A program made the translations under genes and the position numbers. A DNA stretch of 64,000 nt from positions 7,768 through 71,767 of the forward strand of contig JBLIMJ010000001.1 of the NCBI GenBank assembly GCA_047638595.1, in the 5' to 3' direction. This document shows positions 35,307 through 61,397 of this stretch, in pieces. The stretch comes from Acidimicrobiales bacterium (GTDB lineage: Bacteria > Patescibacteriota > Minisyncoccia > Phycocordibacterales > UBA918). Each line of letters begins with the position of its first letter. The stretch's first letter is position 1. The notes beneath the pieces were generated by a model that worked only from the letters and a program-made list of their open reading frames with translations, ran no database searches and was not told the DNA's origin.

Positions 35307-35326
35307 AATATATAGTCACCATACCA

Positions 35327-46032: not shown

Positions 46033-46800
46033 TCATTTAAAGAAGGAATCAGAGAGAATAACAGCGAAATCTCTAAAGGTCATACGTCCATCCCCCGTAA
46101 AGTCATACACTTCTGTTTTCGAAGTCCATGCTGCCATAAAGCGGCTCAAGTCAGCTAAAGACACTTTTCCATCACCATTAATATCAGTCACAATCCTGAC
46201 AGTTACTGAGCCTTCTACAGAAGAACCATTTGATGGGTCATATTTTCCATCTTCATTAGCAACGTACAGCTGAGTACTTTCTTCTCCGCTATCAGTAACA
46301 GCCACTTCTAAACCAGAACCATCTCCAGCAATTAACCTACTGTCAGCGATTTCAAATGTTGCAAGTCCTGAGGTATTTGCTTTTGCCCTAACTGTTGCTA
46401 TCAAATGATCACCGAGGAACCCCTTGCGAAACGTCCCCCCACGAAGTACAACAGTATTGTCCTGCACATAGGGCTGTTCAGTCCACAAAGTAATCACAGA
46501 CTGACCAGTATCAATACCAAGGACTTCTACCTGCACATCTGGAAAAGCTAAAGCGATATCTATCGCATTTACAGGAACATGCGCAGAGACAAATACATTA
46601 ATTTTAAAAATTTCACCTTCGCGGACAGAACTCGCTGATGATTCAATTCGAATGTTCGTCTGTGACGTTGAATCAATTACACTCGCACCAAGAAAAGCAG
46701 CCACAACAAAAAGCAGCGGGAAAGCAAAACGCACCGTACGACTTTTATTGGGCCGGTATGGTGCGAAAATATTATTTAGTATTTTTTTTATAAGGTTCAT
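46033..46800 (-). CDS. Secreted cohesin-domain protein with a C-terminal type-I dockerin
   Basis: Cohesin-like beta-sandwich (GEIFKINVFVSAHVPVNAIDIALAFPDVQVEVLGIDTG...GLATFEIADSRLIAGDGSGLEV) plus a dockerin duplication DINGDGKVSLADLSRFMAAW / DFTGDGRMTFRDFAVILSD. Confidence 0.6.
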   Translation of the reverse strand: MNLIKKILNNIFAPYRPNKSRTVRFAFPLLFVVAAFLGASVIDSTSQTNIRIESSASSVREGEIFKINVFVSAHVPVNAIDIALAFPDVQVEVLGIDTGQSVITLWTEQPYVQDNTVVLRGGTFRKGFLGDHLIATVRAKANTSGLATFEIADSRLIAGDGSGLEVAVTDSGEESTQLYVANEDGKYDPSNGSSVEGSVTVRIVTDINGDGKVSLADLSRFMAAWTSKTEVYDFTGDGRMTFRDFAVILSDSFFK

Positions 46801-47462
46801 AATCCAATTATATCTTCACGTATAGCATCAATTTTAACACCAATATACGAAAGGGTATCATTTACCTCTTGTGCTTTAGTCACCTCGCTAAGCATTTGCG
46901 CTGACTGTACAGAAACCCCGTCGAGCAAGGCCTGGATAATATCCTTCTGAATCACTACTAACTCAGAAGAAAGACTGCTTCTTTGAAGCTCAAATGAAGC
47001 TAGTTCTGACCATTTTGCTACTGGATAGAATATTTGTTCTGATCTTGAATCCACAATATCTAAAAGAGTGACGTAGTCTTGATACACTTCAAACTCCCGA
47101 TTAAGACGTGCGACCATTAATGCTTTTCGTTCTGCATAGAAATCACCACAAGCGCCAAAGAGTTGATCTACTTCAACTAACTCTGCTTTATTAAGTGTTC
47201 CTAGGTTTCCAAGCAATTCATCAAACTTTTGTCGATCTTGTGTATCACAATCCTTCACAATCTCCGCAACAACAGCATCTGCTCCATTACGATCAGTCAC
47301 TTCAGCAATAGAAATGAGGGTGGTCTCTTGTTCTGAGACGAGCAACTTCATGGTAGAGACATACTCAGCTTGTTGTGTGTGTATATAAAGAGAAACTCCA
47401 TAAAACACAGATCCTAAAATTATAAGGCTACCAAAGATGTACTTCTTTTCAATATTTTTCAT
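46797..47462 (-). CDS. Membrane-anchored alpha-helical/coiled-coil protein (hypothetical)
   Basis: N-terminal TM; overlaps both neighbours by 4 bp, so it is operonic. Confidence 0.35.
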   Translation of the reverse strand: MKNIEKKYIFGSLIILGSVFYGVSLYIHTQQAEYVSTMKLLVSEQETTLISIAEVTDRNGADAVVAEIVKDCDTQDRQKFDELLGNLGTLNKAELVEVDQLFGACGDFYAERKALMVARLNREFEVYQDYVTLLDIVDSRSEQIFYPVAKWSELASFELQRSSLSSELVVIQKDIIQALLDGVSVQSAQMLSEVTKAQEVNDTLSYIGVKIDAIREDIIGL

Positions 47463-47465
47463 AGA

Positions 47466-49199
47466 CTATTCAACAATTTTTTCTACATCAGTAATCTCCT
47501 TTTCAACCTTCTTTTGAGCACTCTGAAGTGCCTCCTCTACCGCCTCAATAAGCACAGCCTCTGCCTTAGTTAACTTTTTTGTTTTTCGTGAAGAAGATAA
47601 CAAATCTGAATGGGTCCGAACGACTTTCCTTAAAGCCTCAAACTCAGCACCCAACATGACTAACGCTTCATCAGTTTCTCTAGTAACACCAGTTCGCAAC
47701 CGTCGTAGTCGGACAAACAAGAACCAAAGGCCTAGTATAGACAGTATAGTCAACGCAAGCAATGGAATCAGCACAGAGAGGATACTTACCACAACTGAGC
47801 CTATTCGAATATAACCTGGCTGTTGTACAGCAATACGGACTACATCACTCATCTCACTCTGTGCTCCGCGTTCATCAACAGCCACAGCAGAAAGCTCATA
47901 GACACCTAAAGAAAGCCTCCCTTCAGGGATAAAGATGAACTCTCCTGTTTCAGAACTTAGGATCGATATCTCCTGTGTATCACTTCCTATTTTAGTAAAC
48001 AACACTTTCACTTCAGCATTTGGTCGAGTAATACCTTTTATAACAGGAATAACGTCCTTTGAAACCTCAGACGGGTACTCAGTAAACTGAGGCTTATCAA
48101 ATGCAAGAACACCAAACGATATAGAGTCAATCAAGCTGTTTCCAGCACTATCAAAAGCTTCAATAATTACACTATGATGACCAGGCTCAAGTGATGGCAA
48201 GACCAGCTGACCCTTCTCATCTTCATCGATAAATTCAAAAGGTTCTCCACCGTCAATCTGTATCAAAAATCTTACTACAGCAGAGGTGTCATCCTCGGTC
48301 TTCAATACTAAAGTTTGTATAGGACTTGTTAAATCCACCCCTTCAGACAGTGTTACCTTAAAAGATGTCGGGGGTTTTGAATCAATCGCAATTCTATAGT
48401 GTGCTACACGCCCCCAACCATCGCCATTTCTAAACTGCATATGGAAATACTGCACACCTTCATCTAGGTCTGACAGTGAAATGCTCGAAATAGGTGTATC
48501 GTAGACTTTTGTTGGGATAGAACCACTATTCTCGTCTAAACGTGTCCTTACGGCAGTGACCCCTGCCGGCAGCGCCCACGATAACTCAGCAGACTTCTCT
48601 GTATACCAACCCTCCGGTTCAGGATGTGTTTTCGAGTTAATTACTGGAGCTGCAGGTGTATTTGCGGGTGCGATGTATTCTATTGTTTCTGGCTCAGGAC
48701 TCACTTCTGCAGAGACTATAGTAAACGAGCCCCCATTCATTGAAGTAAGAACATTGGTTCCACGTCCGTCTGCTGCGAGCACTGCCCCGCTGGTAAAAGA
48801 AACTCTAGGGTTCCCAGCGCCCTTAGTTCGGAAGGTTACAGAGATTACCGATCCTCCGCTCCCTGTGTAGCCGGTTGGACTACCTCCACTAAAGGAAATG
48901 GTTCCCGCACTATTTGAGAAAGAAGGTTCGGCTGTCCAAAGATTAAAAATTGAACCTTTAGTGACTCGCACAACACTCAACTCTCCAGGCTTGAAAGAAA
49001 GTTTTCCTTCCGCAGCGTTTATATTTTTACCCGAAGTATTTACCACCACGCGAGCAGTGAAAGTCTGACCAGCTGTGTACACACCTGTGCCTGGTGAAAC
49101 AGAAAGTGTAGCTGCATATGATGATGATGCTACACCACAAATAACTGCAAGTAAGAGCATTTTTATTGCAATAACAAAGTTGTGGTGTGTCAGATGCAT
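47466..49199 (-). CDS. Cohesin-domain surface protein with Ig-like middle region, C-terminal TM and cytoplasmic coiled-coil tail
   Basis: Signal peptide. Cohesin-like segment LSVSPGTGVYTAGQTFTARVVVNTSGKNINAAEGKLSFKPGELSVVRVTKGSIFNLW...GSVISVTFRTKGAGNPRVSF. TM IGSVVVSILSVLIPLLALTILSILGLWFLFV, then a basic/coiled-coil tail. Confidence 0.55.
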   Translation of the reverse strand: MHLTHHNFVIAIKMLLLAVICGVASSSYAATLSVSPGTGVYTAGQTFTARVVVNTSGKNINAAEGKLSFKPGELSVVRVTKGSIFNLWTAEPSFSNSAGTISFSGGSPTGYTGSGGSVISVTFRTKGAGNPRVSFTSGAVLAADGRGTNVLTSMNGGSFTIVSAEVSPEPETIEYIAPANTPAAPVINSKTHPEPEGWYTEKSAELSWALPAGVTAVRTRLDENSGSIPTKVYDTPISSISLSDLDEGVQYFHMQFRNGDGWGRVAHYRIAIDSKPPTSFKVTLSEGVDLTSPIQTLVLKTEDDTSAVVRFLIQIDGGEPFEFIDEDEKGQLVLPSLEPGHHSVIIEAFDSAGNSLIDSISFGVLAFDKPQFTEYPSEVSKDVIPVIKGITRPNAEVKVLFTKIGSDTQEISILSSETGEFIFIPEGRLSLGVYELSAVAVDERGAQSEMSDVVRIAVQQPGYIRIGSVVVSILSVLIPLLALTILSILGLWFLFVRLRRLRTGVTRETDEALVMLGAEFEALRKVVRTHSDLLSSSRKTKKLTKAEAVLIEAVEEALQSAQKKVEKEITDVEKIVE

Positions 49200-49205
49200 A
49201 CGTTT

Positions 49206-50267
49206 TTAATTATCTTCATCTTCTAATTCATCTTCGCTATCAACATCTTCACCAGTTTCAGCAGCACTCTTTCGTCTGAAGAAGAACAATACAGTAAATA
49301 CAAAACCTGAAAGGACAAAGATCCCGATACCTGTCGCAATCAACGCAATCATCACTTTCACCTCTGCAGTCATTGTTCGTTGTGCTTCGTCTGGCACGTA
49401 TATCGCAACATATTCATTCCCAGCCTTGTCTATAGCACGCACTCGAATAGTACTATTAAGTGTCTGATCTTTTAGTACATAAGGACTTTTTACTTCCTTC
49501 CATGGAGCGTCTTCACGTCCCCAATTAAATAAACTAGCTTCAGTCATAGACTCCTCAATTACTTCATAGTGATCAATACCTGACTGCTTGTCAGTAGTAT
49601 TAAAAACAATAAAATAATCATTACTAAATGCATTTTTTGTTCTTTCCAGAGTAATACTGAACTCTTCTGGGTCTATCTCGTCAGCGTTTACAATATCACC
49701 CCATTCATTATTAATGCTTGAGCCAGGTGTTTTTGAAAGCTCGATACTAGTACCTAATAATGTTAATGGTGCCAATGTTCCAAAACCGTCATTGAGTAAT
49801 ACTTGTGTCTGTTGACCAAAAGCAATTTGTCCCTGGTTTGTATCTCCGGATGCTCCAATAACAAAACCGGGAGACTGAAAAAGTAAATCAACAACAACAT
49901 TTGTTAAACGAGGATCACCTGCAATACGGCCACAATAGCCATTAGGTATACCTCCTGCAAAAGTAATAGTTTTATTAGAACGATCAATAATTGGTTCCTC
50001 AACCCACATACTCAGAATAGAAGCACCACGTGAGATGTCGACAGGTTGGATATTATCCGAGTATTTAATAACACCATCAACAACATTTACACATTCATCC
50101 TCATCAGTGTCCAACCGAACAGAGACTTTAAGAGTATCGCCTCGAGATAGTTCAGCGTGGTTGGGATCCATATACAATGTTGCCGCTTGAGTCTGAGTTG
50201 CCCCCAACAAAAAGACTGCAAAGAGACCAACGATAAGTTTCCTATTCATATAGTGTAAGTATAGCAA
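49206..50267 (-). CDS. Cohesin-domain surface protein with C-terminal TM and acidic cytoplasmic tail
   Basis: Signal peptide; GDTLKVSVRLDTDEDECVNVVDGVIKYSDNIQPVDISRGASILSMWVEEP...ITFAGGIPNGY; TM MIALIATGIGIFVLSGFVFTVLFFF; tail EDVDSEDELEDEDN. Confidence 0.5.
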   Translation of the reverse strand: MLYLHYMNRKLIVGLFAVFLLGATQTQAATLYMDPNHAELSRGDTLKVSVRLDTDEDECVNVVDGVIKYSDNIQPVDISRGASILSMWVEEPIIDRSNKTITFAGGIPNGYCGRIAGDPRLTNVVVDLLFQSPGFVIGASGDTNQGQIAFGQQTQVLLNDGFGTLAPLTLLGTSIELSKTPGSSINNEWGDIVNADEIDPEEFSITLERTKNAFSNDYFIVFNTTDKQSGIDHYEVIEESMTEASLFNWGREDAPWKEVKSPYVLKDQTLNSTIRVRAIDKAGNEYVAIYVPDEAQRTMTAEVKVMIALIATGIGIFVLSGFVFTVLFFFRRKSAAETGEDVDSEDELEDEDN

Positions 50268-50574: not shown

Positions 50575-51663
50575 TTAAAACGTTGGTGTTGCTATGTACG
50601 TTAGGACTGCAGAGTAGTCGTCTCCAGCTTCCTGAAGCGCAGAGATTTCTGTCTTGAATCCAATAGTAGTAGTACCAACACCTACACCTGTTCCACTTGC
50701 TGGACCATCATTTCCCATAACAGCTCGGGGAGTTGTTGTTGCGCCAATGAATTGACCTGCAACAAACTGAGTTCCTCGCGAAGTGATAGTAGTATCATCA
50801 GATGAGATACCCCACCATCCGTATGTGCTATCAACACCTAATGTAGGTGATGTGGGTGATACCCAGTTTCCTGGAACATCAGCGTCATTGATTCCATCAA
50901 TGTCAGCACCTGTTGATGATTCTAGTGCACCGTCCACTTGGACAGTAACTACATATCCATTAGATGCGTTTGTTGAAACAGACAGCTCATGAGCTGAAGA
51001 CGTTGCAACTAATGCATCTAACTTACCAAAGGTAACTGAAGTTGAAGCAGCAGCACCAGTTGTAGTTGCTCCTCCTGAACTTAGTTCAGTGTTAGCAGCT
51101 GTACCAGATACCGTAAAGGTAAAGATGGTATCAACTGTAGCTGTAACTGTAACTGCAGTAAGAATTACAATTCGTGTTGATCCTGTGTCAGTCATGGATC
51201 CTCCGAGAAGAATCTCGTATGAACCTTCAGAACCAGGACTTGTGACGAAGTTTGTAACACCTACGACAACATCGACAACGCTTGCAGCTGCAATGCTACC
51301 AGTAGCAACAGTCAAGGTAACAATTTGACCTGCACCAGCTGCTGATACGTTAGCACTAATGTCTGACGAATCATCATCAATAGTTACATCACCATCAACG
51401 ATTGAACCAATTCCTGTAAACCCTGAAGGGAAAGTGAAAGTGATTGTCTCCCCGTTCGCCACTCCAGTTGGAGTGACGAAAGAAAAAGTATGTGTTGGTG
51501 CAGCACTAGGCGATGAATCAGTAATTGTGTCGCTAAACGAACTCACGTTCGCAGCGTCCACAAAGCGAAGTGACGGCAAGCCAAGCGACCATAAAAGAAT
51601 CGCGAAACCTGCAATCATTGCAATAGTTTTGAGCATTCCGACAGATTTTTCTGTTCGAAACAT
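50575..51663 (-). CDS. Secreted T/S/G-rich surface protein with a WxL-like C-terminal domain
   Basis: Signal peptide, then low-complexity T/S/G/V-rich beta-type sequence. The C-terminal block (...GWWGISSDD...DDYSAVLTYIATPTF) is shared with the C-terminus of the 1414-aa protein (...DYYNTITYIAVPVF). Confidence 0.45.
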   Translation of the reverse strand: MFRTEKSVGMLKTIAMIAGFAILLWSLGLPSLRFVDAANVSSFSDTITDSSPSAAPTHTFSFVTPTGVANGETITFTFPSGFTGIGSIVDGDVTIDDDSSDISANVSAAGAGQIVTLTVATGSIAAASVVDVVVGVTNFVTSPGSEGSYEILLGGSMTDTGSTRIVILTAVTVTATVDTIFTFTVSGTAANTELSSGGATTTGAAASTSVTFGKLDALVATSSAHELSVSTNASNGYVVTVQVDGALESSTGADIDGINDADVPGNWVSPTSPTLGVDSTYGWWGISSDDTTITSRGTQFVAGQFIGATTTPRAVMGNDGPASGTGVGVGTTTIGFKTEISALQEAGDDYSAVLTYIATPTF

Positions 51664-51957: not shown

Positions 51958-52696
51958 CTATTACAGGGGACACCGAGTGTCCCCTGTAGTAAAATCTATA
52001 TATTGCTATGGAATTCTATCATGTAATAAATAGAGGAGTTGATAAACGTACTACCTTTCAAGAGGAGGGTGACTACTTACGTTTTATACAAAACCTTCAC
52101 ATATACAACAGCACAGAATCGGCGCCACATAATGTCTGGTCAACATCTGCCCGCATGAAAATAATGCCTGTAAAAAAATTAGTGACTATTCATGCGTACT
52201 GCCTCATGCCTAACCATTATCACCTTTTACTCTCACCTCTTGTCGATGACGGAATCACTAAGTTCATGCATAAGGTCGGCATGGGATACTCAAAATATTT
52301 TAATGAGAAAAATGAGCGTACTGGTGTCTTATGGCAAGGTAAATATAAAAGCATAAATATTACAACTGACGCACAGTTAAACTACATCCCTTACTATATA
52401 AATCTTAACGCTCTAGATCTTTCACACCCACAATGGAGACGCGGTGCTGTTACAAACACACAAAATGCATTAACTCGGCTACAGCAATACAAGTGGAGTA
52501 GTCATTCTCTATTTTTATACCCTGAAAAAATAGACACATCAATCCTTAGTGGAAGTTTTTTTACTAAAGAGCTAAGTCAGGCAAAATATATACAGGAAAT
52601 AGTAAATATTATTTCCGACAAAACCCTGGCTCAATATAGCGAAAGTATTGAACTAAAATAAATTACAGGGGACACCGAGTGTCCCCTGTAATTTAT
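51958..52696 (+). mobile_element. IS200-like minimal insertion element / RAYT-type unit: Y1 transposase gene bounded by identical perfect hairpins
   Basis: The left hairpin tacaggggacac-cgag-gtgtcccctgta (51962-51989) and an identical right hairpin (52664-52691) flank a single HUH transposase ORF. The unit is about 0.74 kb, typical of IS200. Confidence 0.6.
52008..52661 (+). CDS. tnpA: Y1 HUH transposase (IS200/IS605 TnpA / REP-associated tyrosine transposase family)
   Basis: HUH motif in HAYCLMPNHYHLLL, and a catalytic-Tyr region GMGYSKYFNEKNERTGVLWQGKYKS. Confidence 0.8.
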   Translation: MEFYHVINRGVDKRTTFQEEGDYLRFIQNLHIYNSTESAPHNVWSTSARMKIMPVKKLVTIHAYCLMPNHYHLLLSPLVDDGITKFMHKVGMGYSKYFNEKNERTGVLWQGKYKSINITTDAQLNYIPYYINLNALDLSHPQWRRGAVTNTQNALTRLQQYKWSSHSLFLYPEKIDTSILSGSFFTKELSQAKYIQEIVNIISDKTLAQYSESIELK

Positions 52697-52706: not shown

Positions 52707-53909
52707 TTAACCTGTCCAGTTGAAGAGCAGTATGGAAAAATCCTCTAGGCCGACTCTGTCGTTGCCGTTTATATCAGCTGGGGGGTTTGAGTTGCCGCCT
52801 GTTGTTCCCCACCAGAATATTAAAATGGAGAAGTCAATCAAATTAATAAGACCATCACGGTTTAGGTCTGAAGGTGTTGTTGGTGACCCATCCACTCCTA
52901 AAAATAACTGTAACGTAGAACTAAAACTACTTTCTGTAGTAAGAGAACCTGAACCAAGAATAAAACGGGCACGAGCTGTATATTCAGCTGCAGAGAGTCC
53001 ACTTGTATCAAAATCAATGTTCCAATAACCACCACTATCAGAAATGGTTGTGAGAACTTGGTCACTATCGCCAATGTGGACTTCAAGTGAAGTGTTCTGA
53101 ACAGCCTGTCCTGCAAAAGTGATAGTATCCCCAGGATTGATTGTAGAATCAGATACTACAATTGTTGGTGGAACAAGAATCCCTGCAACCTTTGTGATTG
53201 CTCCTTGCGTCACATCAAATGTAGTACCAAATGTAATCGATCGAATGTTATCGTCATCTTCAACCCAAAAACCCATTGAAATAGTCCCGGGTGAAGTATT
53301 AGAGGTAAACTCAAAATTACCAGCACTGTCAGCCTTCACGGTACCCACAGATTTAGCATCAAGAATAATGTTGACTTTCGCTCGCGGGATAGTTTTACCA
53401 GTTACATTTACCTGAGTATCACCAAAATCCTCATCACTTCCGCCAGACGGCTGAGTACCGCCACCTGAAGAACCGCCACTTCCAGAACCAGCTGGCTCAA
53501 TGGTACAGTCTGCATTACAGAAGTCACCTGAAATATTATTCCCATCATCACACTCCTCAGCATAGATAGTCTGCAAAATACTGTCCCCGCAATACGGTCC
53601 AAAATCACAATCCACATCGCACTGTCTACCTAAGATAGAAGTGCTGTATGCACCTGTTTCACCCAACACATCACAAGTCTCATCAACATCAACAATTTCA
53701 TTTCCACAGATACTTGTCGTTAAACTAGTTGTTGCAATATAACCCCCAGATATTACTTGCGCAGTAGCTACCTGACTTAGCAAGAAAAAACACCCTACTA
53801 CAGCAAGTGCAGCAGGTAGGGCGTTTAACTCATGCAAAAAAGTAACAAATTGTCTCATGGTAAAACTACGCCCGTGTCCGCCTACGACGTTCCCTGTACG
53901 TATGCGCAA
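52707..53909 (-). CDS. Secreted protein with Myxococcus-type cysteine-rich repeats, Ig-like domains and a C-terminal type-I dockerin
   Basis: Signal peptide; CGNEIVDVDETCD...YCGDSILQTIYAEECDDGNNISGDFCNADC (CxxCGDG...ECDDGN pattern); C-terminal DLNRDGLINLIDFSILIFWW / DINGNDRVGLEDFSILLFNW. Confidence 0.55.
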   Translation of the reverse strand: MRIRTGNVVGGHGRSFTMRQFVTFLHELNALPAALAVVGCFFLLSQVATAQVISGGYIATTSLTTSICGNEIVDVDETCDVLGETGAYSTSILGRQCDVDCDFGPYCGDSILQTIYAEECDDGNNISGDFCNADCTIEPAGSGSGGSSGGGTQPSGGSDEDFGDTQVNVTGKTIPRAKVNIILDAKSVGTVKADSAGNFEFTSNTSPGTISMGFWVEDDDNIRSITFGTTFDVTQGAITKVAGILVPPTIVVSDSTINPGDTITFAGQAVQNTSLEVHIGDSDQVLTTISDSGGYWNIDFDTSGLSAAEYTARARFILGSGSLTTESSFSSTLQLFLGVDGSPTTPSDLNRDGLINLIDFSILIFWWGTTGGNSNPPADINGNDRVGLEDFSILLFNWTG

Positions 53910-54813
53910 GGAGTAACATCAGAACAAGTAAAGATAAGATTGGAAGCAATACAGACAGCTTGTGTGCTGATGAGAGACCAGTAAATCCAAATCCAGCAGT
54001 TTGCAATGTCCCGTACGGCAGAATATTGAGATTAAGTTCACCTTGATACTTCACATCTTCATCATTCATGATTTCATAACGTGCAAGGTACGAACCTGTA
54101 GGTAGACGAGTCGGAACCTCAGCTACAATTTCTTCAGTTCCAAATGGTTCAATTTTTGTCAATTTACCCTTATTTGTTGTCTCTTCAAGTAATACAGTCC
54201 CTGAAGTATCATAAATTTTAAATACAATTTCTGAAGGAGATACATCAACGTTACCTGTATTTTCAAGGAGCATCGCAAAATTTATTTTTCCTGGAAAGTA
54301 AAGCCATCCGACTTTTGTACCTTCATTTAGATCATTGACCCCTACTTTACGAAGTCTAAAATCTTTTATAACTTTATCAATAACATGTAATTCAATATCA
54401 ATTTGAGCGCCGAGAGATATATTAACCGCACCTGTAGCAACAGCATCGTCAGTTGCCCCAGTTTTAATTCTTATAGCTCCTGTATACGTTTTAAAATCAG
54501 CATCATCGGGTACGGTAACACGGACAGTCATAGGAACCTTTTGTTCACCACGAGGGAGCGTAAAAGTTTCCCCTTGAATAATCTCAATCCAGTCAGATAT
54601 AGCTGGTGCGTCAACAGTAATAGATGCTTTTAGAGGTGTAGTGGGGTCTCCTCGAACAAGAAGGATTTGTTGTTCATAGGTCGAATTTCGAGTAAGACTC
54701 GTATTTCGAACAAATGGTGGAGTGACCCCAAAACCAGCCAGCACAGAATCAGCACCAAAGAGTACAAATATCACAATTGCTAATAGTACAGTTTTTGTAA
54801 AGAGGGTAGTCAT
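53866..54813 (-). CDS. Cell-surface protein, DUF916/DUF3324-like, C-terminal TM anchor (third paralog)
   Basis: GFGVTPPFVRN..., WIEIIQGETFTLPRGEQKVPMTVRVTVPDDADFKTYTGAIRIK, LENTGNVDVSPSEIVF, then TM plus RERRRRTRA tail. Overlaps the downstream gene by 44 bp. Confidence 0.5.
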   Translation of the reverse strand: MTTLFTKTVLLAIVIFVLFGADSVLAGFGVTPPFVRNTSLTRNSTYEQQILLVRGDPTTPLKASITVDAPAISDWIEIIQGETFTLPRGEQKVPMTVRVTVPDDADFKTYTGAIRIKTGATDDAVATGAVNISLGAQIDIELHVIDKVIKDFRLRKVGVNDLNEGTKVGWLYFPGKINFAMLLENTGNVDVSPSEIVFKIYDTSGTVLLEETTNKGKLTKIEPFGTEEIVAEVPTRLPTGSYLARYEIMNDEDVKYQGELNLNILPYGTLQTAGFGFTGLSSAHKLSVLLPILSLLVLMLLLAHTYRERRRRTRA

Positions 54814-54908
54814 TGGAAATCGACGTTATATTTCAACTTAATTATCCCAAGTTGGTTCAGATAAAGCAAGAACCACTGTTGGGATAACAGTGGTTCTGCA
54901 TAGTTTTA

Positions 54909-56789
54909 CTACCAATCAGCAGGTTCGGCTGTCTTTGCAGTGAATGTATTCTCCCCAGTGTATGCTCCGGCTAATGTAATTGCCACAGGCACTTCAATTC
55001 CCCAGAATGTTACACCTAGTGACTGTGTAGCAGTGGACGTTGATTTTTTAATATCAATCTCTAGTTCTACTGGTGTAGAAGAAGAAAGTATGAATCCGCT
55101 ACTAGTTGCTGATCCGTACGTTACTGATGAAGTTGCAAACACCTGATAATTGGCTTGAATTGTTGAAGATGATGAGTTTGGACACGTAATTGCCGAGGTG
55201 TATGTTCCACACATAGCTTGACCTGAGAGCATTTGATCCATACCTACATTTCCAACTGCCCGCACAGTAGTAGTCGCAACTAAAGGATCTGTCCTATCTC
55301 CTGGTTCAAGAGAACCAAATGGAATTGCTGCTGTATCAAGTACAAGCGCAAGGAAACTAACTACATCTTGGGCAATTGAACTTGTTGCAAGTGTTCCAGT
55401 TGCAAAGTTGTCGTCAACTGGTGCCACAGCTGCAGACCAGTCACTGGCAAAGTGCACGGTGTTTGTTGCTCCACCATCAGTAGGGTCAGCAATGTACCAA
55501 AGCGGGAATGTGCAATCAAACCGCATAGTTAAGTCAGTTGCTCCTAAACAACTTGTTGTAGATGCTGTACATGCGACATTCCAAGTAGTCGTTGGTACCG
55601 TACTTGTATAACAATCATTTGCATCATATTCTCCAGACGCATCACAATTATCCCACCCACCAGGAAGATTGGACCTAAATACTGATATTTCATATCCTAC
55701 TAATTCGTCGCCAGCACTTGCATTTAAACAACTATTGTTGTCCGAGGCATTGAAATAGAGTTCCATACCTGTTGTTTCTCCAGCTTCCACAGTCAGCGTC
55801 ATGTCAGCACCATTATTAAGGGTTATGTCACTGTCTGAAACAAAGGGTGTTGCATTTGCTACAGTTAAAACTGAGTCAGCTCCCTGTTGGCCTCCCAAGG
55901 CGACATGACCATGGTTATCCACGATGTAACCATATGAACCGTAGTTCTGGTCTCGCGTCGGAATTACAATAGTATATGCACCACTTTGTTGTGTCGCGGT
56001 AAAGGTGGACGTTGCAAGCGTTGTTGCGTTACAACTTGTACTTGTTGCTGAAAAGCTTGCAGTTGAACATACATGTAACTGTATGGTGTCAGCTGCATCC
56101 ACAACATCACTATCTGATGAGGTAGCATAGAATGTGACCGAATTACCAGGTAATCCAGGTGAATCATCTGAAAATGCTACTAGAACTGGGCGGTGATTCA
56201 CGTTGAATGGTGAGGCTGTTGTAGCTGTTCCTTGTTTATAGGTCGTGCTACAACGTGGACTTACCGGGTCGTCGTCACAAATCCACGCGTACCAGTCATT
56301 TGACTCTGCAAGACCCTCACTTGTTGTGGTAGTAGCAGTTACCGCAGACCCACTTGGTGTACTCGTTGAAACCGCCCACTGGGTCGTTGATGTTGGACTA
56401 CAATCAGGTGGTGCAGTTCCAAGTGACTCAGGACCTGCTGCGGCATTTGGTGTTGGCAGATTTGCTGTATTACAAATCAGCAAGAAGTATGGTGCACCAT
56501 TGGAGTCAGCACCAGTTGCTGTCCATGAAACAGTATCACCTGAATTAGTTGGTGTTGTTGTGGAGGATTCAAATAACTCTTGCGCATCTATAGTCCACTG
56601 AGGAGGAGTGTTTAACACTGTGATTGATGTAGTAGCGACACCTTGTGCTTCTACCTGTTGTAATTCTTGTGCACCCAAATTGAGAAGAAAAACAAAAGCA
56701 AAAACCACCACTCCTATAAATGAAGTCAAAACCGTTATCTTACCTGCAGTGTGTAAGTACTTTGGAAACTCTTGCATGTTGTACGACAT
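54909..56789 (-). CDS. Large (626 aa) T/S/A-rich membrane-anchored surface protein
   Basis: N-terminal signal-anchor ITVLTSFIGVVVFAFVFLLNLGA, then a long T/S/A/G/D-rich beta-type sequence with scattered Cys pairs. Confidence 0.55.
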   Translation of the reverse strand: MSYNMQEFPKYLHTAGKITVLTSFIGVVVFAFVFLLNLGAQELQQVEAQGVATTSITVLNTPPQWTIDAQELFESSTTTPTNSGDTVSWTATGADSNGAPYFLLICNTANLPTPNAAAGPESLGTAPPDCSPTSTTQWAVSTSTPSGSAVTATTTTSEGLAESNDWYAWICDDDPVSPRCSTTYKQGTATTASPFNVNHRPVLVAFSDDSPGLPGNSVTFYATSSDSDVVDAADTIQLHVCSTASFSATSTSCNATTLATSTFTATQQSGAYTIVIPTRDQNYGSYGYIVDNHGHVALGGQQGADSVLTVANATPFVSDSDITLNNGADMTLTVEAGETTGMELYFNASDNNSCLNASAGDELVGYEISVFRSNLPGGWDNCDASGEYDANDCYTSTVPTTTWNVACTASTTSCLGATDLTMRFDCTFPLWYIADPTDGGATNTVHFASDWSAAVAPVDDNFATGTLATSSIAQDVVSFLALVLDTAAIPFGSLEPGDRTDPLVATTTVRAVGNVGMDQMLSGQAMCGTYTSAITCPNSSSSTIQANYQVFATSSVTYGSATSSGFILSSSTPVELEIDIKKSTSTATQSLGVTFWGIEVPVAITLAGAYTGENTFTAKTAEPADW

Positions 56790-56872
56790 ATAATAATGAT
56801 ATTTACTATATAGTATATTAAATTTTTAAATAAAACGTGGGTTATACACAGTTTTATGCAAAGGATTGGACA

Positions 56873-58087
56873 CTATTCGTAACGAATTGCATCCAAGGGA
56901 TTGAGTGTTGCTGCACGTTTTGCTGGAAAAATACCAGTAAGATACCCTACCCCAGCAGAGAAAACGGCGATAAATGTAAGGAAATCAAGAGGAAAAGCAA
57001 ACAGATTTACGGACTGACCACCATATTGACTTGCTGCAAAATTGAGCATTAAGTTTACGATAGTACCCAAAGCTACCCCCATAATGATACCTGTAACACC
57101 CCCCAAAAATCCTACAACTATCGACTCGGAAACAAAGAGCCACTTAATATCACTCGGTGAAGCTCCAATAGTTCGCATGATTCCAATCTCTTTTGTTCGC
57201 TCAAGAAGTGTCACTGTCATGGTATTAAACATACCAATGGCTGATACAAGAAGCGCAATACCTCCAAAGGTTGCAAGTACGGCCTGTACACCCTGAAAGA
57301 TTTTAGTAGCTTGCTCAACAGTTTTTGACAACGCTGTCACACGATACCCAGCTTCGATGAGCTCACCCTCAACTATCGGGAGAAATTCATTAGTATCTAC
57401 ACGAACCTGGATACGTTCATACTCTTCAATACCAACGTGACTCCGCAACTCAGGCAGCATCATTAATGCATTAAGTACCCCCTCTTCCTTTGTAATACCT
57501 TTTACGGTGTACTCCTTATCTATATAAATCTCATTAACCTCATCTGTACCATCTTCAGCAGGTACTAAAAGACGGAATTTTACCTTTTCTCCAATAAATT
57601 TATCTATTTCCTCATCCTCGACACCAAAAAGTTTTAATACAGCAGGGGAAAGCATAATTTCGTTAGTGTTATCAATGTCTTCATCATCAAATACCTCCCC
57701 ATAAGATGCAATAATACCTGCATAACGAACATATGGGGGCTCTGCACCCTGAATAAACAAGTTCCCAGTAAGACCTTTGTAGGTAACCAACGCTGGAAAC
57801 CGAGCAAGAGGAGCTGCATCAAGCACGTGTTCATTTTCTTCAAACTCTACAACTGTTTGTGCTGTCAACTGCAAATTCTGTGCACCTGTAGCTGACACAC
57901 CAAGAGACAGGAGCGTTTCCCCAAACACGATTTGCTCTAGAATAATCTGCTGTAGGCCAAAACCAAGACCTACAAGAACAACCACAGCACCGGTTCCCAC
58001 TCCCATGCCTAAAATAGTCAACCAAGTACGCATGGGGTTGGTTTTAAAAGCTCGTGTTGAAAGCTGTGCTAAATCTTGAACGCGCAT
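56873..58087 (-). CDS. ABC transporter permease, FtsX/MacB family
   Basis: 404 aa with TM1, a large extracytoplasmic domain and three C-terminal TM helices, which is the FtsX-type topology. Confidence 0.8.
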   Translation of the reverse strand: MRVQDLAQLSTRAFKTNPMRTWLTILGMGVGTGAVVVLVGLGFGLQQIILEQIVFGETLLSLGVSATGAQNLQLTAQTVVEFEENEHVLDAAPLARFPALVTYKGLTGNLFIQGAEPPYVRYAGIIASYGEVFDDEDIDNTNEIMLSPAVLKLFGVEDEEIDKFIGEKVKFRLLVPAEDGTDEVNEIYIDKEYTVKGITKEEGVLNALMMLPELRSHVGIEEYERIQVRVDTNEFLPIVEGELIEAGYRVTALSKTVEQATKIFQGVQAVLATFGGIALLVSAIGMFNTMTVTLLERTKEIGIMRTIGASPSDIKWLFVSESIVVGFLGGVTGIIMGVALGTIVNLMLNFAASQYGGQSVNLFAFPLDFLTFIAVFSAGVGYLTGIFPAKRAATLNPLDAIRYE

Positions 58088-58115
58088 AATGTTTTTCTAA
58101 GTATACGACACTGTG

Positions 58116-59438
58116 TTACGTTTTATAACTTACGTCCACACCTTGAGCAATAAGTTTTTCAAAATATCGTGTAATATCGTCTGCCTCTTTAAGGGTCAAA
58201 GCCAAACCACCAGTACTGACTCCTTTCTGAATACATTCATGGAATATATCTTCCCCAGATACACCAACGACACGGTCAGCAATAACCTCAATAAGGTTAT
58301 CTTCTTTCTTCTTGGTCAGTTTCATTCGGTGCGCCTTTAGGAGATGCTCATGTAGCCGCTCTGCCAACTTGTGCTGATCAAAAAAAGAGTGGGTTTTATC
58401 CTGTTGATTACGGAAGCGACGAATATCATCTGCTTGATTTAAAATGAGGGCTGAAGTTTTTGACATACGTCTTGCTTCACGCTCTGGAATACCAACTCCT
58501 CCACGTTCATACGGAAGAACGAGCGTTTTAATAAAAGTATCTTTAGAAATCTTTCCTGATATAAAGAAATTAACAACTCTCTCCATACGTTCCAACTGGT
58601 CGTATGTATAATCCTGAGTAAGGAAATTAACGAGACTTTTTACGCGAAGTGTTTCAATTGAGTCGTAAGGAAATAGTCGAGCAAGTTGTTCAAGCTCGGT
58701 TACAATCGTCTCCCCTTCTCTCACCGGCTTTATCTGTTTCCTCTGAGGATTCACAACTTCACGTACAATTACACCATCTTTAAGATAATACACTCGATGG
58801 GCGTAGCTTAAGTGGGCAGCATTGTGCGACACCATAATAACCGTACGTCTATCAAACGTATTAATCTCGTCAATCTTATCCATAACCTGTTGGGTAGATA
58901 CAGAGTCGAGGTTCCCTGTCGGCTCATCAGCAAGAAGAATTCTCGGATCATTAATCATTGAGCGAGATACAGACACTCGCTGCTGCTGACCTCCTGAGAG
59001 CATGGGAGTAATCTTGTGTGATACATGCCCCACACCAAACCTATCCAACAATGACTGAGCCCTTCTATTACGTGTGGCCTTGTCCTTGTTTGCAAAAATC
59101 ATTGGTAGTGCAACATTGTCGAGCACGGTGAGTGATGGAATGAGGTTAAACTGCTGGAAAATAATTCCCATAACATACCGCTGGAAATACACACGCTCAT
59201 CTATGGAAATTGCATAAATATCTTCACCTCCAATAAGCATCGTTCCATTACCTGGTGGCAATGAACCCTGAATAGAATACATGAGTGTCGACTTACCAGA
59301 GCCCGAAGCACCAAAAAGAATGATGTACTCACCTTCATAGATGTCAGTGCTCGCACCAGAAAGAGCCTTGAATTCATTACTCTTTCCTTTGTTGTATATA
59401 ATGTCAAGATCTCGACAGATAATCAGTGGTTTTGCCAT
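58116..59438 (-). CDS. ABC transporter ATP-binding protein (MacB/LolD-like) with an unusual roughly 200-aa C-terminal extension
   Basis: Walker A GASGSGKST, signature LSGGQQQRVSVSRSM, Walker B ILLADEPTG. The preferred start is the ATG giving MAKPLIICRDL, whereas the ORF track begins at an upstream TTG (59483). The C-terminal half has no recognisable family. Confidence 0.8.
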   Translation of the reverse strand: MAKPLIICRDLDIIYNKGKSNEFKALSGASTDIYEGEYIILFGASGSGKSTLMYSIQGSLPPGNGTMLIGGEDIYAISIDERVYFQRYVMGIIFQQFNLIPSLTVLDNVALPMIFANKDKATRNRRAQSLLDRFGVGHVSHKITPMLSGGQQQRVSVSRSMINDPRILLADEPTGNLDSVSTQQVMDKIDEINTFDRRTVIMVSHNAAHLSYAHRVYYLKDGVIVREVVNPQRKQIKPVREGETIVTELEQLARLFPYDSIETLRVKSLVNFLTQDYTYDQLERMERVVNFFISGKISKDTFIKTLVLPYERGGVGIPEREARRMSKTSALILNQADDIRRFRNQQDKTHSFFDQHKLAERLHEHLLKAHRMKLTKKKEDNLIEVIADRVVGVSGEDIFHECIQKGVSTGGLALTLKEADDITRYFEKLIAQGVDVSYKT

Positions 59439-59864
59439 GAAGAAATTAAATGAAGAAGGGAGTGTAACGACTATGACGCCCAATTTTTAATGGCTGAAAG
59501 GAATATAAAATTGGAGGTACACTTGGGATGAATTTAGTTCCAAATTTGAACCTGCTATAGGTAAATTCCTGGAATTTCTAATCATAACCACACTCAGAAA
59601 TTTTCTTAAAAATCTCTATAATAATATCATCCCACCACTAAAAACATGTTTGCTGTATCCCCACATATTATCTTAAATCGTTTCTGTCTAGGAACAGTAG
59701 GTGCTCAATAGACTGTTTTCATACAAACATACGATTTCAGTACAGATATTTCTGTACTGTTGGTAAAGAAAATTCTGGTCGTAAGTGACAGTATCGGAGT
59801 GCGCCTCTCCTATCCATGCTTCGGCTAAAGTCTCACATCGGGATTCCCGACTCCTGTCGGGATC

Positions 59865-59887
59865 AGATAAAAAGTCCTCAGGGACTT
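59865..59887 (-). terminator. Rho-independent terminator
   Basis: aaaaagtcc-tcag-ggacttttt, immediately after the stop of the 59889..61352 gene. Confidence 0.5.
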
Positions 59888-59888
59888 T

Positions 59889-61352: not shown

Positions 61353-61397
61353 AGCACTAGTGGTTTATGAAACAGTGAAAGAAGTCCCCAAATATTT

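What the first reader, a model, noticed from the sequence alone, without database searches (positions are those of the whole stretch)
50575..51663. Shared C-terminal motif DY...(L/I)TYIA(T/V)P(T/V)F in two otherwise unrelated-size surface proteins, a possible WxL-like anchoring or sorting signal
The 362-aa protein ends ...GDDYSAVLTYIATPTF and the 1414-aa protein (20805..25049) ends ...GDYYNTITYIAVPVF. The roughly 150 residues before these termini are also similar (G.T.G, GW.GI/GYHVGDD blocks). The partial giant protein 61398..>64000 ends ...TFTPISPF. A conserved C-terminal domain ending in an aromatic residue on three secreted proteins points to a common anchoring or sorting module. The pattern resembles the second WxL motif (Y...LTW.L..P), with W->Y and L->A.
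Basis: seen in the sequence. Interest (0 to 1): 0.55.

Follow-up and report, generated by a model that had tools for sequence, protein, structure and literature searches.

The report
Pilin-type C-terminal domain in CPR bacteria
Two secreted proteins of very different size in this candidate-phyla-radiation (Patescibacteria) genome end in the same ~175-residue domain. It is a divergent copy of the C-terminal domain of the recently described CPR "Pam" pilins and probably lets a small pilin and a giant adhesin join one surface fibre. It is not a WxL cell-wall anchor, although its partner proteins are relatives of the WxL-interacting proteins of Gram-positive bacteria.

Summary
The motif is real. 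The 362-aa and 1414-aa proteins share a ~175-185-residue C-terminal domain: BLASTP E=3e-10 with composition adjustment, shuffle z=18, profile-profile E=3e-28. That protein instead shares a different C-terminal module with a 626-aa neighbour.

No Pfam WxL match was found, and profile comparison with 47 genuine WxL domains was not significant. Both domains independently match NCBIfam NF058581, "CPR Pam pilus system pilin subunit" (E~1e-6, below the curated cutoff), as do 36 of 37 homologues.

The 362-aa protein has the Pam pilin layout: signal peptide, variable beta-sandwich, conserved hydrophobic linker strand, C-terminal domain. The domain always sits at the extreme C-terminus, ends in F or Y, and occurs on ~370-aa pilins and on 700-3762-aa giants in 2809 representative clusters. 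In the 80 related genome loci examined, almost all from Patescibacteria, pilin and giant genes lie in one conserved ~25-kb cluster.

That cluster encodes membrane-anchored two-Ig-domain proteins (315, 340 and 542 aa). These are homologous to Firmicute WxLIP (DUF916/DUF3324) and fold like PapD/FimC chaperones.

Best reading: a divergent Paceibacteria-type Pam-like pilus built by strand complementation, with the giant protein as its adhesin. The link to WxL clusters is the new part.

The parts
50575..51663 (-). Gene for the 362-aa putative major pilin: signal peptide, N-terminal beta-sandwich, linker strand, C-terminal domain.
   Evidence: ORF. More than 1131 homologues of ~370 aa, all unannotated. 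AF2 model has pLDDT 85.5 and two beta-sandwich domains. 36 of 37 family members hit NF058581.
51550..51663 (-). Residues 1-38: unusually conserved Sec-type signal peptide with a probable A-x-A cleavage site (..RFVDA|AN).
   Evidence: Helix 5-26 in the AF2 model. Hydrophobic segment at residues 11-32. Block conservation 0.77-0.91. The cleavage site is inferred.
51163..51549 (-). Residues 39-167: N-terminal beta-sandwich. Its centre (residues 81-130) is the most variable part of the protein.
   Evidence: Strands E43-E167 at pLDDT >90. Conservation 0.39-0.62 for residues 81-130.
51103..51162 (-). Residues 168-187: hydrophobic linker LTAVTVTATVDTIFTFTVSG with alternating conserved residues. This is the candidate donor strand.
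   Evidence: Invariant A175, V177, T179, F181, F183, V185 and near-invariant V171, V173. Kyte-Doolittle >=1.8 over residues 165-183. pLDDT dips to 67 at 171-180 despite conservation of 0.81. The donor role is inferred by analogy with PamA/PamB.
50578..51102 (-). Residues 188-362: C-terminal domain, a Pam-pilin-C-like beta-sandwich.
   Evidence: NF058581 aligns model positions 2-148 of 148 to residues 206-362, E=6.3e-6. hhalign to the 1414-aa family gives E=3e-28.
50578..50625 (-). Residues 347-362, GDDYSAVLTYIATPTF: the last beta-strand, ending in the free C-terminus.
   Evidence: Strand E349-360. Conservation 0.85-0.96. Family consensus DDY.TTLTYVATPTF.
20805..25049 (-). Gene for the 1414-aa giant secreted protein: signal peptide, ice-binding-like beta-solenoid, repeated beta-sandwich modules, same C-terminal domain. 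Putative adhesin of the fibre.
   Evidence: ORF. PF11999 at residues 87-301, E=3.5e-25. A 1414-like gene lies downstream of the pilin gene in 41 of 42 type-A loci with enough flank.
20808..21332 (-). Residues 1240-1414: C-terminal domain of the giant protein, with two conserved cysteines and ending SGDYYNTITYIAVPVF.
   Evidence: NF058581 aligns model positions 14-148 of 148, E=1.3e-6. hhalign alignment. Family sequences.
53866..54813 (-). Gene for the 315-aa membrane-anchored two-Ig-domain protein: signal peptide, two beta-sandwiches, C-terminal TM helix. Candidate chaperone or anchor, PamC/D-like and WxLIP-like.
   Evidence: AF2 pLDDT 79. Foldseek top hit is 9i25_C WxLIP, E=2e-9, followed by FimC and DraB chaperones. 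The conserved loop at 124-134 has pLDDT <50. A 315-like gene lies upstream of the pilin gene in 36 of 38 loci.
19781..20803 (-). Gene for the 340-aa WxLIP homologue (signal peptide, two Ig-like domains, C-terminal TM helix), immediately downstream of the giant protein gene.
   Evidence: hhalign to the 315-aa family: 97.9%, E=5.6e-13. Its family hits PF06030 in 25 of 30 members. hhalign to Firmicute WxLIP: 97.1%, E=4.9e-11 over 250 columns. The family profile's only significant PDB hits are EfmWxLIP1 chains, E=1e-6.
18166..19794 (-). Gene for the 542-aa paralogue: WxLIP-like ectodomain, two TM helices, C-terminal LytR_C domain.
   Evidence: hhalign to the 340-aa family: 100%, E=7e-60. PF13399 LytR_C, E=2.8e-8. 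TM segments at 276-303 and 376-401.
46033..50267 (-). Four conserved genes downstream of the pilin gene: 353 aa and 577 aa (cohesin-like domain, Ig domain, C-terminal TM), 221 aa, and 255 aa (cohesin-like plus dockerin-like).
   Evidence: Synteny. Cohesin, Big_13 and dockerin hits. Mutual homology. Their role in the fibre is unknown.
52707..64000 (-). Conserved upstream part of the cluster: 400 aa (Cys-rich repeats, Ig, dockerin), 315 aa, 626 aa, MacB-type ABC permease (404 aa) and ATPase (455 aa), 487 aa (FnIII), and a giant DUF2341 protein (partial).
   Evidence: Same order in dozens of Patescibacteria loci. Pfam hits.
25327..27393 (-). Gene for the 688-aa protein that precedes the giant-protein gene here and in the related loci.
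   Evidence: Synteny. Only weak beta-propeller repeat hits. Function unknown.

Best explanation
The shared ~175-185-residue C-terminal module is a divergent version of the C-terminal domain of CPR 'Pam' pilins. The related genome records are labelled mostly Paceibacteria/Parcubacteria-type lineages.

In Pam pilins this domain is an incomplete Ig-like beta-sandwich. Its open groove is filled by a beta-strand from another protein: first a membrane-anchored chaperone, then the linker strand of the next subunit (donor-strand exchange).

It would sit at the edge of the groove and end in an obligatorily free aromatic C-terminus.

The 362-aa protein would be the major pilin. It has a signal peptide, a variable exposed N-terminal sandwich, a conserved hydrophobic linker acting as donor strand, and the acceptor C-terminal domain.

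The 1414-aa protein carries the same acceptor domain behind an ice-binding-like beta-solenoid and repeated sandwiches. It could therefore be plugged into the same fibre as its adhesin. It probably sits at the distal tip, because it lacks the pilin-type V-x-V-x-A-x-V part of the linker.

The 315-, 340- and 542-aa proteins have two Ig-like domains and a C-terminal TM helix. They would hold the open domain by strand complementation at the membrane and hand it over or anchor it.

Shown here: the homology of the two C-terminal domains, their match to the Pam pilin model, the domain layout, the strictly C-terminal position, the conserved gene linkage, and the WxLIP/PapD-like nature of the partner proteins.

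Inferred: that a fibre forms, which strand is donated, the tip position of the giant protein, and the chaperone role of the partners.
For: Match to the Pam pilin domain:
- NF058581 CPR_Pam_pilin_C is hit independently by the 362-aa protein (E=6.3e-6, full model length, residues 206-362) and by the isolated 1414-aa C-terminal domain (E=1.3e-6).
- 36 of 37 family members hit it, best E=4.3e-10.

Layout and conservation agree with the cryo-EM description of PamA/PamB (bioRxiv 10.64898/2026.03.03.709456):
- The AF2 model shows a signal helix, an N-terminal sandwich, a linker and a C-terminal sandwich.
- The linker and C-terminal domain are the most conserved parts and the centre of the N-terminal domain is the least.
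- The linker is as hydrophobic as a TM helix, has alternating invariant residues, and is modelled with low confidence in the monomer.

Position and distribution:
- The domain is always at the extreme C-terminus. It occurs on ~370-aa proteins and on 700-3762-aa giants, in 2809 representative clusters.
- The last residue is F or Y in all 119 examined.
- 80 related genome loci are almost all labelled Patescibacteria.

Gene linkage:
- A giant gene lies downstream of the pilin gene in 41 of 42 loci and a 315-like gene upstream in 36 of 38.
- In 24 other loci a WxLIP-like gene directly follows a paralogous pilin gene.

Partner proteins:
- The AF2 fold of the 315-aa protein hits WxLIP (9i25_C, E=2e-9) and FimC/DraB chaperones.
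- The 315-, 340- and 542-aa proteins are homologous to each other.
- The 340-like family is homologous to Firmicute WxLIP over both domains.
- A WxLIP strand is predicted to complete the WxL sandwich (PMC10599100).
- The most conserved loop of the 315-aa protein (residues 124-134) is its least confidently modelled segment. That is expected for a strand that orders only on binding.
Against: - NF058581 scores are 26-28 bits against a curated cutoff of 55, so NCBI's rules would not name these proteins Pam pilins.
- The 340/542-like family and the other window proteins scanned returned no other Pam-named NCBIfam model. Whether chaperone or PamR models exist in that library is unknown. PamT was hit weakly by one pilin homologue only. 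The 315-aa family was scanned against NCBIfam only through its window member.
- Foldseek with the whole pilin model returned only generic two-Ig-domain adhesins at TM ~0.25. Neither chaperone-usher pilins nor WxL appear in the top 50.
- The Pam structures (PDB 25PZ, 25QA) were not found in the PDB copy searched, so no direct structural comparison was possible.
- The cluster differs from the M. amalyticus pam operon. It contains a MacB-type ABC transporter and cohesin/dockerin proteins, and no obvious PamR.
- No multimer model and no experimental filament exist for this family.
- The giant protein keeps the second half of the linker (LVFTLAG aligns with FTFTVSG), so it might also donate a strand and not be restricted to the tip.
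Confidence: 0.65

Rival explanations
1. It is a WxL-type surface-anchoring system without polymerisation. The C-terminal domain would be the CPR counterpart of the WxL domain. It would hold a small and a large protein non-covalently at the cell surface, stabilised one-to-one by a strand from a membrane-anchored WxLIP homologue, and no fibre would form.
For: - The cluster layout (small protein, large protein with the same C-terminal domain, WxLIP-like protein with a C-terminal TM helix) mirrors Firmicute WxL clusters as described in PMC10599100.
- The partner proteins are true WxLIP homologues.
- A weak co-linear resemblance places GY on the first W-x-L motif and LTY on the second.
- The 542-aa paralogue carries a LytR_C domain. 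I know this domain as cell-envelope associated; that was not tested here.
Against: - There is no Pfam WxL hit in the window proteins or in 37 homologues.
- hhalign probability against 47 WxL domains is about 1%.
- The CTD profile hits nothing in the PDB, including 9i25.
- The significant hits are to the Pam pilin model.
- The 362-aa protein has an extra N-terminal domain and a conserved hydrophobic linker that a pure anchor would not need.
Confidence: 0.2
2. It is a C-terminal secretion or sorting signal, comparable to a T9SS C-terminal domain, PEP-CTERM, LPXTG or an outer-membrane beta-signal. It would be recognised by the conserved MacB-type ABC transporter or by an unknown sorting enzyme, and possibly removed.
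For: - The position is strictly C-terminal and ends in an aromatic residue.
- An ABC ATPase and a FtsX/MacB permease are conserved in the same cluster.
Against: - Both proteins already have N-terminal Sec signal peptides.
- The module is a 175-aa folded sandwich, not a short tail made of a TM helix plus basic residues.
- No sortase or exosortase hit was seen among the cluster proteins scanned.
- CPR bacteria have no outer membrane or BAM machinery (established knowledge, not tested here).
- Homology to a domain seen inside assembled Pam filaments argues that it is retained.
Confidence: 0.05
3. The similarity is an artefact of T/S/G-rich composition, with no real shared domain.
For: Both proteins are rich in T, S, G and A.
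Against: - Composition-adjusted BLASTP gives E=3e-10.
- The shuffle test gives z=18.
- hhalign gives E=3e-28.
- Conserved non-low-complexity blocks are present: TNA..GY, W..P, LQ.AGDY, Y[IV]A.P.F.
Confidence: 0.01

Closest known systems
Pam pilins PamA/PamB of Ca. Mycosynbacter amalyticus (CPR, Saccharimonadia). Sources: NCBIfam NF058581 CPR_Pam_pilin_C and bioRxiv 10.64898/2026.03.03.709456.
   Same: - The C-terminal domain matches the full length of the profile at a significant E-value.
- The layout is the same: signal peptide, N-terminal beta-sandwich, linker strand, C-terminal domain.
- The linker and C-terminal domain are the most conserved parts.
- Membrane-anchored two-Ig-domain partners with a C-terminal TM helix are encoded alongside.
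- The family is essentially restricted to CPR bacteria.
   Different: - Scores are about half the curated cutoff.
- The lineage differs. Records are labelled mostly Paceibacteria, Kaiserbacteria or Nomurabacteria, whereas the preprint reports mainly Saccharimonadia and Microgenomatia.
- The domain is also fused to giant 700-3762-aa proteins, which the preprint does not describe.
- The cluster adds a MacB-type ABC transporter, cohesin/dockerin proteins and DUF2341/FnIII giants, and has no recognisable PamR or PamT.
- Filament formation has not been shown.
WxL domain proteins and WxLIP (DUF916/DUF3324 plus TM helix) of Firmicute csc/WxL clusters. Sources: PF13731, PF06030, PDB 9i25 and 9i1y, PMC10599100.
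   Same: - The system has the same three parts: a small protein, a large protein with the same C-terminal domain behind N-terminal binding domains, and a signal-peptide/two-Ig/TM partner.
- The partner is homologous to WxLIP: hhalign 97.1%, E=4.9e-11; 25 of 30 members hit Pfam PF06030; PDB hit E=1e-6; top Foldseek hit.
- In both systems a partner strand is proposed to complete an incomplete sandwich.
- The terminal motifs look alike: Y..TLTW.L.D.P against DY..TLTYVATPTF.
   Different: - The C-terminal domain itself shows no significant sequence or profile similarity to WxL.
- Tyrosine replaces both tryptophans.
- The CPR domain ends exactly at P-x-F-COOH.
- The small protein carries an extra N-terminal domain and a linker.
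- The phylum is different.
- No peptidoglycan-binding evidence exists.
Chaperone-usher pili (Fim/Pap), including the two-domain tip adhesins FimH and PapG.
   Same: - The proposed logic is the same: an incomplete Ig-like pilin domain completed by a donated strand.
- The C-terminal strand is conserved and carries an aromatic residue near the end.
- The partner has the two-domain PapD-like fold, with FimC and DraB among the Foldseek hits at E~1e-7.
- An adhesin made of a binding region plus a C-terminal pilin domain resembles FimH (my own knowledge).
   Different: - There is no usher and no outer membrane.
- The partner is membrane-anchored rather than soluble.
- The candidate donor strand is an internal linker rather than an N-terminal extension.
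- The scans run found no Pfam or NCBIfam match to fimbrial or PapD families.
- Not a member of this family.

Membership tests
CPR Pam pilus pilins (NF058581 CPR_Pam_pilin_C) | Match to the family HMM at or above the curated cutoff (55 bits). | tested here: not met
   Scores are 26.3 bits (E=6.3e-6) and 28.5 bits (E=1.3e-6). The best family member reaches E=4.3e-10. The matches are significant and cover the full model, but lie below the cutoff.
CPR Pam pilus pilins (NF058581 CPR_Pam_pilin_C) | Layout of signal peptide, N-terminal beta-sandwich, single linker strand and C-terminal Ig-like domain. | tested here: met
   The AF2 model of the 362-aa protein shows this layout, as described for PamA/PamB. 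The 1414-aa protein has only the C-terminal domain and part of the linker.
CPR Pam pilus pilins (NF058581 CPR_Pam_pilin_C) | Linker and C-terminal domain are the most conserved regions. | tested here: met
   Conservation profile of 37 homologues.
CPR Pam pilus pilins (NF058581 CPR_Pam_pilin_C) | Operon encodes PapD-like two-domain chaperones with a C-terminal TM helix (PamC/PamD). | tested here: met
   The 315-, 340- and 542-aa proteins have the required topology. The fold of the 315-aa protein hits WxLIP, FimC and DraB. Synteny is conserved. No sequence comparison with PamC/PamD themselves was possible.
CPR Pam pilus pilins (NF058581 CPR_Pam_pilin_C) | Presence of PamT (C-terminal domain only, tip) and PamR (two FnIII domains plus TM, anchor). 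| tested here: inconclusive
   Only one of 37 pilin homologues hits NF058579 PamT, at E=0.0018. No stand-alone C-terminal-domain ORF exists in the window. The 353- and 577-aa proteins (cohesin-like, Ig, TM) could play the anchor role, but this is unproven.
CPR Pam pilus pilins (NF058581 CPR_Pam_pilin_C) | Assembly into filaments by donor-strand exchange. | not testable with these tools
No experimental data exist for this family.
CPR Pam pilus pilins (NF058581 CPR_Pam_pilin_C) | Restricted to CPR/Patescibacteria. | tested here: met
   The 80 related genome loci are almost all labelled Patescibacteria lineages, apart from generic or probably mis-binned labels.
WxL domain (Pfam PF13731) | Match to the WxL HMM or profile. 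| tested here: not met
   No hit for the window proteins at E<=1. No hit for 0 of 37 family members at E<=10. hhalign against 47 WxL domains gives probability 1.4% and 0.6%.
WxL domain (Pfam PF13731) | Two Trp-x-Leu motifs. | tested here: not met
   The corresponding positions read G-Y-V-V (G-Y-Q-I in the giant) and T-Y-I-A. There is no tryptophan at either.
WxL domain (Pfam PF13731) | C-terminal location on a small and a large protein of one cluster. | tested here: met
WxL domain (Pfam PF13731) | Cluster contains a WxLIP (DUF916-DUF3324-TM) protein. | tested here: met
   25 of 30 family members hit PF06030, best E=6e-8. hhalign gives 97.1% over 250 columns. The PDB EfmWxLIP1 chains are hit at E=1e-6. 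The top Foldseek hit is 9i25_C. The window's own 340- and 542-aa proteins are individually below the Pfam cutoff.
WxL domain (Pfam PF13731) | Non-covalent binding to peptidoglycan. | not testable with these tools
   Requires biochemistry.
Chaperone-usher pilins | Outer-membrane usher and a soluble periplasmic chaperone. | tested here: not met
   No usher-like hit among the cluster proteins scanned. The partner proteins are TM-anchored.
Chaperone-usher pilins | Match to fimbrial or PapD Pfam families. | tested here: not met
   No such hits. Only fold-level similarity of the 315-aa protein to FimC and DraB was found.

The most novel reading that the evidence does not exclude
The CPR Pam-type pili and the WxL surface-protein clusters of Firmicutes may be two branches of one ancient monoderm assembly system based on strand complementation. 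In this reading WxLIP (DUF916/DUF3324) equals the Pam chaperone, and the WxL domain is the diverged homologue of the pilin C-terminal domain. Its two W-x-L motifs would correspond to G-Y-x-V and L-T-Y-I-A here.

Two predictions follow. WxL proteins would be handled, and perhaps polymerised, by donor-strand exchange. The Paceibacteria cluster, with its conserved MacB-type ABC transporter, would represent an energised variant of such a system.
Probability: 0.3. Interest if true: 0.75.

Novelty: new variant of a known kind. Interest (0 to 1): 0.55.

Why it matters
Pam pili were described only in 2026, in one cultured Saccharimonadia parasite, and were reported mainly from Saccharimonadia and Microgenomatia.

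This finding indicates that a divergent branch of the same pilin domain is widespread: 2809 representative clusters at 50% identity. In the genome records examined it occurs mostly in Paceibacteria/Parcubacteria-type lineages. There it is unannotated and falls below the NCBIfam cutoff.

The same domain is also the C-terminal handle of giant candidate adhesins. These are obvious candidates for the molecules that contact host cells in these largely uncultivated, host-dependent bacteria.

The finding also connects the CPR system to the long-enigmatic WxL/WxLIP clusters of lactobacilli, enterococci and Listeria through demonstrable homology of the partner proteins. That connection yields a testable hypothesis about how both systems assemble.

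Tried and rejected
- **Third protein as a carrier.** Rejected by BLASTP, HMM and hhalign. The 832/866-aa protein shares a different module with the 626-aa protein.
- **WxL membership.** Tested with Pfam on the window proteins and on 37 homologues. I also fetched real WxL clusters from metagenomes using the WxLIP motif NQIDKxxxYFDLK and ran hhalign with reversed and column-shuffled controls. Only a weak local signal remained.
- **PDB by sequence.** Neither the full pilin profile nor the C-terminal-domain profile gave any meaningful hit.
- **Foldseek with the whole pilin model.** It returned only generic two-Ig-domain adhesins at TM ~0.25, which is uninformative because two domains were searched as one body.
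- **Other Pam-named NCBIfam models.** None found for the cluster proteins scanned.
- **Viral-contig scan for WxLIP.** Found nothing.
- **Promoter and terminator scan around the pilin gene.** No more sites than in shuffled sequence.
- **tRNA scan of the window.** Empty.
- **Literature search for a link between WxL and pili or donor-strand exchange.** No such paper is in the library.
Full report
**Observation**

ORF 50575..51663 (-) encodes a 362-aa protein ending GDDYSAVLTYIATPTF. ORF 20805..25049 (-) encodes a 1414-aa protein ending SGDYYNTITYIAVPVF. The frame at 61398..>64000 (-) is open to the window edge and ends GGVTFTPISPF.

The two first proteins are similar well beyond the terminal motif:
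- BLASTP with compositional adjustment gives 30% identity over 158 residues, E=3e-10.
- A Smith-Waterman score of 163 compares with 38.8+-6.8 for 1000 shuffles, z=18.
- Family profiles align at 99.8% probability, E=3e-28. The match runs from residue 177 of the small protein to its last residue.
- HMMs built from either family find the other protein (E=9e-23 and 2e-20) and no other ORF of the window.

The third protein does not carry this domain. Its C-terminal ~190-230 residues are instead homologous to the C-terminus of the 626-aa protein at 54909..56789 (E=6e-13; E=7.5e-31).

**What the domain is**

Pfam has no model for it, and in particular no WxL hit.

NCBIfam model NF058581, 'CPR_Pam_pilin_C, Pam pilus system pilin subunit', aligns over its full length to residues 206-362 of the small protein (E=6.3e-6). 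It also aligns independently to the isolated C-terminal domain of the giant protein (E=1.3e-6). 36 of 37 homologues of the small protein hit it, best E=4.3e-10. All scores lie below the curated cutoff of 55 bits.

The model derives from a 2026 preprint (bioRxiv 10.64898/2026.03.03.709456). Cryo-EM of filaments of Ca. Mycosynbacter amalyticus showed two pilins, PamA and PamB. [quoted passage not shown] The operon also encodes PapD/FimC-like chaperones that carry a C-terminal transmembrane helix.

**Anatomy of the 362-aa protein**

The AF2 model (pLDDT 85.5) shows:
- a signal helix at residues 5-26;
- a beta-sandwich at residues ~43-167;
- a less confident segment at 171-180;

In 37 homologues the centre of the N-terminal domain is the most variable part. 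The linker and C-terminal domain are the most conserved, with alternating invariant residues A175, V177, T179, F181, F183 and V185. The segment 165-183 is as hydrophobic as a membrane helix.

A conserved, hydrophobic, alternating strand that a monomer model cannot place confidently is what a donated strand should look like. This remains an inference.

**Distribution**

The small protein has more than 1131 close homologues of ~370 aa, all annotated as hypothetical.

A profile search of 1.84 billion representative proteins found 2809 clusters at E<=1e-3 and 1514 at E<=1e-10. Among the 150 best, the match ends at the last residue, or within a few residues of it, in all but two partial matches. 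The carriers fall into two classes: ~350-400-aa pilin-like proteins and giants of 700-3762 aa. The last residue is F in 45 of 46 giants and 62 of 73 pilins, and Y otherwise.

Eighty related genome loci are almost all from Patescibacteria. Most are labelled Paceibacteria, Kaiserbacteria, Nomurabacteria or Parcubacteria. The preprint reports Pam pilins mainly from Saccharimonadia and Microgenomatia.

**Gene context**

The pilin gene sits in a strongly conserved cluster with this gene order:
1. DUF2341 giant
2. FnIII protein
3. ABC ATPase
4. FtsX/MacB permease
5. 626-aa protein
6. 315-aa protein
7. 400-aa dockerin protein
8. pilin
9. 353-aa protein
10. 577-aa protein
11. 221-aa protein
12. 255-aa protein
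13. 688-aa protein
14. 1414-like giant, in some genomes followed by the 340- and 542-like genes

Linkage counts:
- A 1414-like gene follows the pilin gene in 41 of 42 loci with enough downstream sequence.
- A 315-like gene precedes it in 36 of 38 loci.
- In 24 further loci a paralogous pilin gene is followed directly by a 340/542-like gene.

In this window the cluster is split. The 688, 1414, 340 and 542 genes (18.2-27.4 kb) are separated from the rest (46.0-64.0 kb) by a type IV pilus cluster and two-component system genes.

**Partner proteins**

The 315-, 340- and 542-aa proteins are homologous to each other (hhalign 97.9% and 100%). Each has a signal peptide, two beta-sandwich domains and a C-terminal TM helix. 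The 542-aa protein adds a second TM helix and a LytR_C domain.

Evidence on what they are:
- The AF2 model of the 315-aa protein (pLDDT 79) has as its top PDB match 9i25_C, 'WxLIP from Enterococcus faecium locus A bound to long WxL' (E=2e-9). FimC and DraB chaperones and RbmA follow.
- By sequence, 25 of 30 members of the 340/542-like family hit Pfam PF06030 WxLIP_PGBD, best E=6e-8.
- The family profile aligns with Firmicute WxLIP over 250 columns at 97.1%, E=4.9e-11.
- The family profile's only significant PDB hits are the EfmWxLIP1 chains, E=1e-6.

In Firmicutes, WxLIP is predicted to insert a strand that completes the WxL beta-sandwich (PMC10599100). The most conserved loop of the 315-aa protein (residues 124-134..GAVNISLGAQ..) is its least confident segment in the model. 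This parallels the disordered hairpin of WxLIP that orders on binding.

**The WxL question**

I retrieved 29 Firmicute WxL loci from metagenomes through the WxLIP motif and collected 47 distinct WxL domains from small and large WxL proteins.

Profile comparison with either C-terminal-domain family is not significant (probability 1.4% and 0.6%). The best local alignment is co-linear and places G-Y on the first G-W-x-L motif. It scores modestly above column-shuffled controls: 18.7 against 10.7+-2.0, with a maximum of 17.1. Global alignment shows no signal.

At system level, however, the small-protein, large-protein and WxLIP layout is shared, and the WxLIP component is homologous.

**Mechanism proposed**

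The C-terminal domain is a strand-accepting pilin domain. The 362-aa protein polymerises through its linker strand. The giant protein uses the same domain to join the fibre.

Giants conserve only the second half of the linker (l.f...G aligned with FTFTV.G) and lack the pilin-specific V.VtA.V segment. This favours an acceptor-only tip position, as in FimH-type adhesins, but does not prove it.

The WxLIP-like proteins would act as membrane-anchored chaperones or anchors.

I put 0.65 on this overall reading. I put 0.2 on a non-polymerising WxL-like anchoring system, and little on a sorting signal or an artefact.

**Limits**

- There is no multimer model and no domain-only structural search.
- The Pam structures were not found in the PDB copy searched.
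- The whole-pilin Foldseek search was uninformative.
- Scores to the Pam model are sub-threshold.
- The cluster differs from the published pam operon.

**Novelty**

I rate this a new variant of a known kind. The family is unannotated and comes from lineages other than those where Pam pilins were reported. It carries the domain on giant candidate adhesins, and it sits in a different and larger cluster. The homology of its partner proteins to WxLIP is not mentioned in the Pam preprint and was not found in the searchable literature.

Noticed in passing
54909..56789 (-) and 61398..>64000 (-): The 626-aa protein and the partial DUF2341 giant share a second, distinct C-terminal module of ~190-230 aa (hhalign E=7.5e-31). 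It ends in ..FWGI.VP....YTG..TFT.. and is unrelated by profile to the pilin domain. Like the pilin domain, it sits on one mid-sized and one giant protein of the same cluster. Its function is unknown.
   Followed up: partly
56873..59483 (-): A MacB-type ABC transporter is conserved inside the pilin cluster in dozens of genomes. It consists of a 455-aa ATPase with a long C-terminal extension and a 404-aa permease with MacB_PCD and FtsX domains. The published Pam operon is said to have no dedicated envelope machinery. This transporter could be a mechanotransmission or export component.
   Followed up: partly
46033..50267 (-) and 52707..53909 (-): The cluster encodes cohesin-like and dockerin-like modules. 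The 353- and 577-aa proteins have a cohesin-like domain, an Ig domain and a C-terminal TM helix. The 255-aa protein has cohesin-like and dockerin-like domains. The 400-aa protein has Cys-rich DUF4215 repeats, Ig domains and a dockerin. This suggests a membrane-anchored cohesin-dockerin scaffold next to the pilin gene.
   Followed up: partly
52008..52661 (+): An IS200-like Y1 transposase gene (PF01797, E=1.9e-9) lies on the opposite strand, in the gap between the 400-aa gene and the pilin gene. The related loci examined have a ~300-400-bp gene-free gap at this position. Homologues of the transposase occur in 6 related loci.
   Followed up: partly
25327..35710 (-): A type IV pilus gene cluster (PilB/T2SSE, PilC/T2SSF, PilM and prepilins with N_methyl motifs), followed by two-component system genes up to ~45.7 kb, separates the two halves of the pilin cluster. 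These halves are contiguous in most related genomes.
   Followed up: partly
whole window: NCBI labels the source contig 'Acidimicrobiales bacterium' (proteins ACI92I_000058 and _000061). The window has 40.6% GC, which is low for that order as far as I know. Its pilin cluster matches loci labelled almost exclusively Patescibacteria. The bin label is probably wrong.
   Followed up: partly
51550..51663 (-), residues 1-38 of the 362-aa protein: The signal peptide and the first ~20 mature residues (..LLWSLGLPSLRFADA|ANVT.VSDTLSDSAPSA) are unusually conserved for a Sec signal, with block conservation up to 0.91. This hints at a dedicated processing step or at a second functional N-terminal strand.
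   Followed up: no
20805..25049 (-) and 61398..64000 (-): Both giants contain repeated modules that begin with an aromatic-R-aromatic-x-(N/D)-D-D type motif (HYHWRNDDGD, YYRFYVDNDA, KWRWYDDATN, HYRWRNDDGG). They look like a shared repeat family of beta-sandwich spacers. The 1414-aa protein starts with an ice-binding-like beta-solenoid (PF11999).
   Followed up: no
L046, L050, L058, L070, L072 and others (type-B loci): Many genomes carry a second, paralogous pilin gene in a different context. It is followed directly by a ~355-aa WxLIP-like gene, and further downstream by larger 400-like and 577-like genes. Some genomes therefore encode two such systems.
   Followed up: partly
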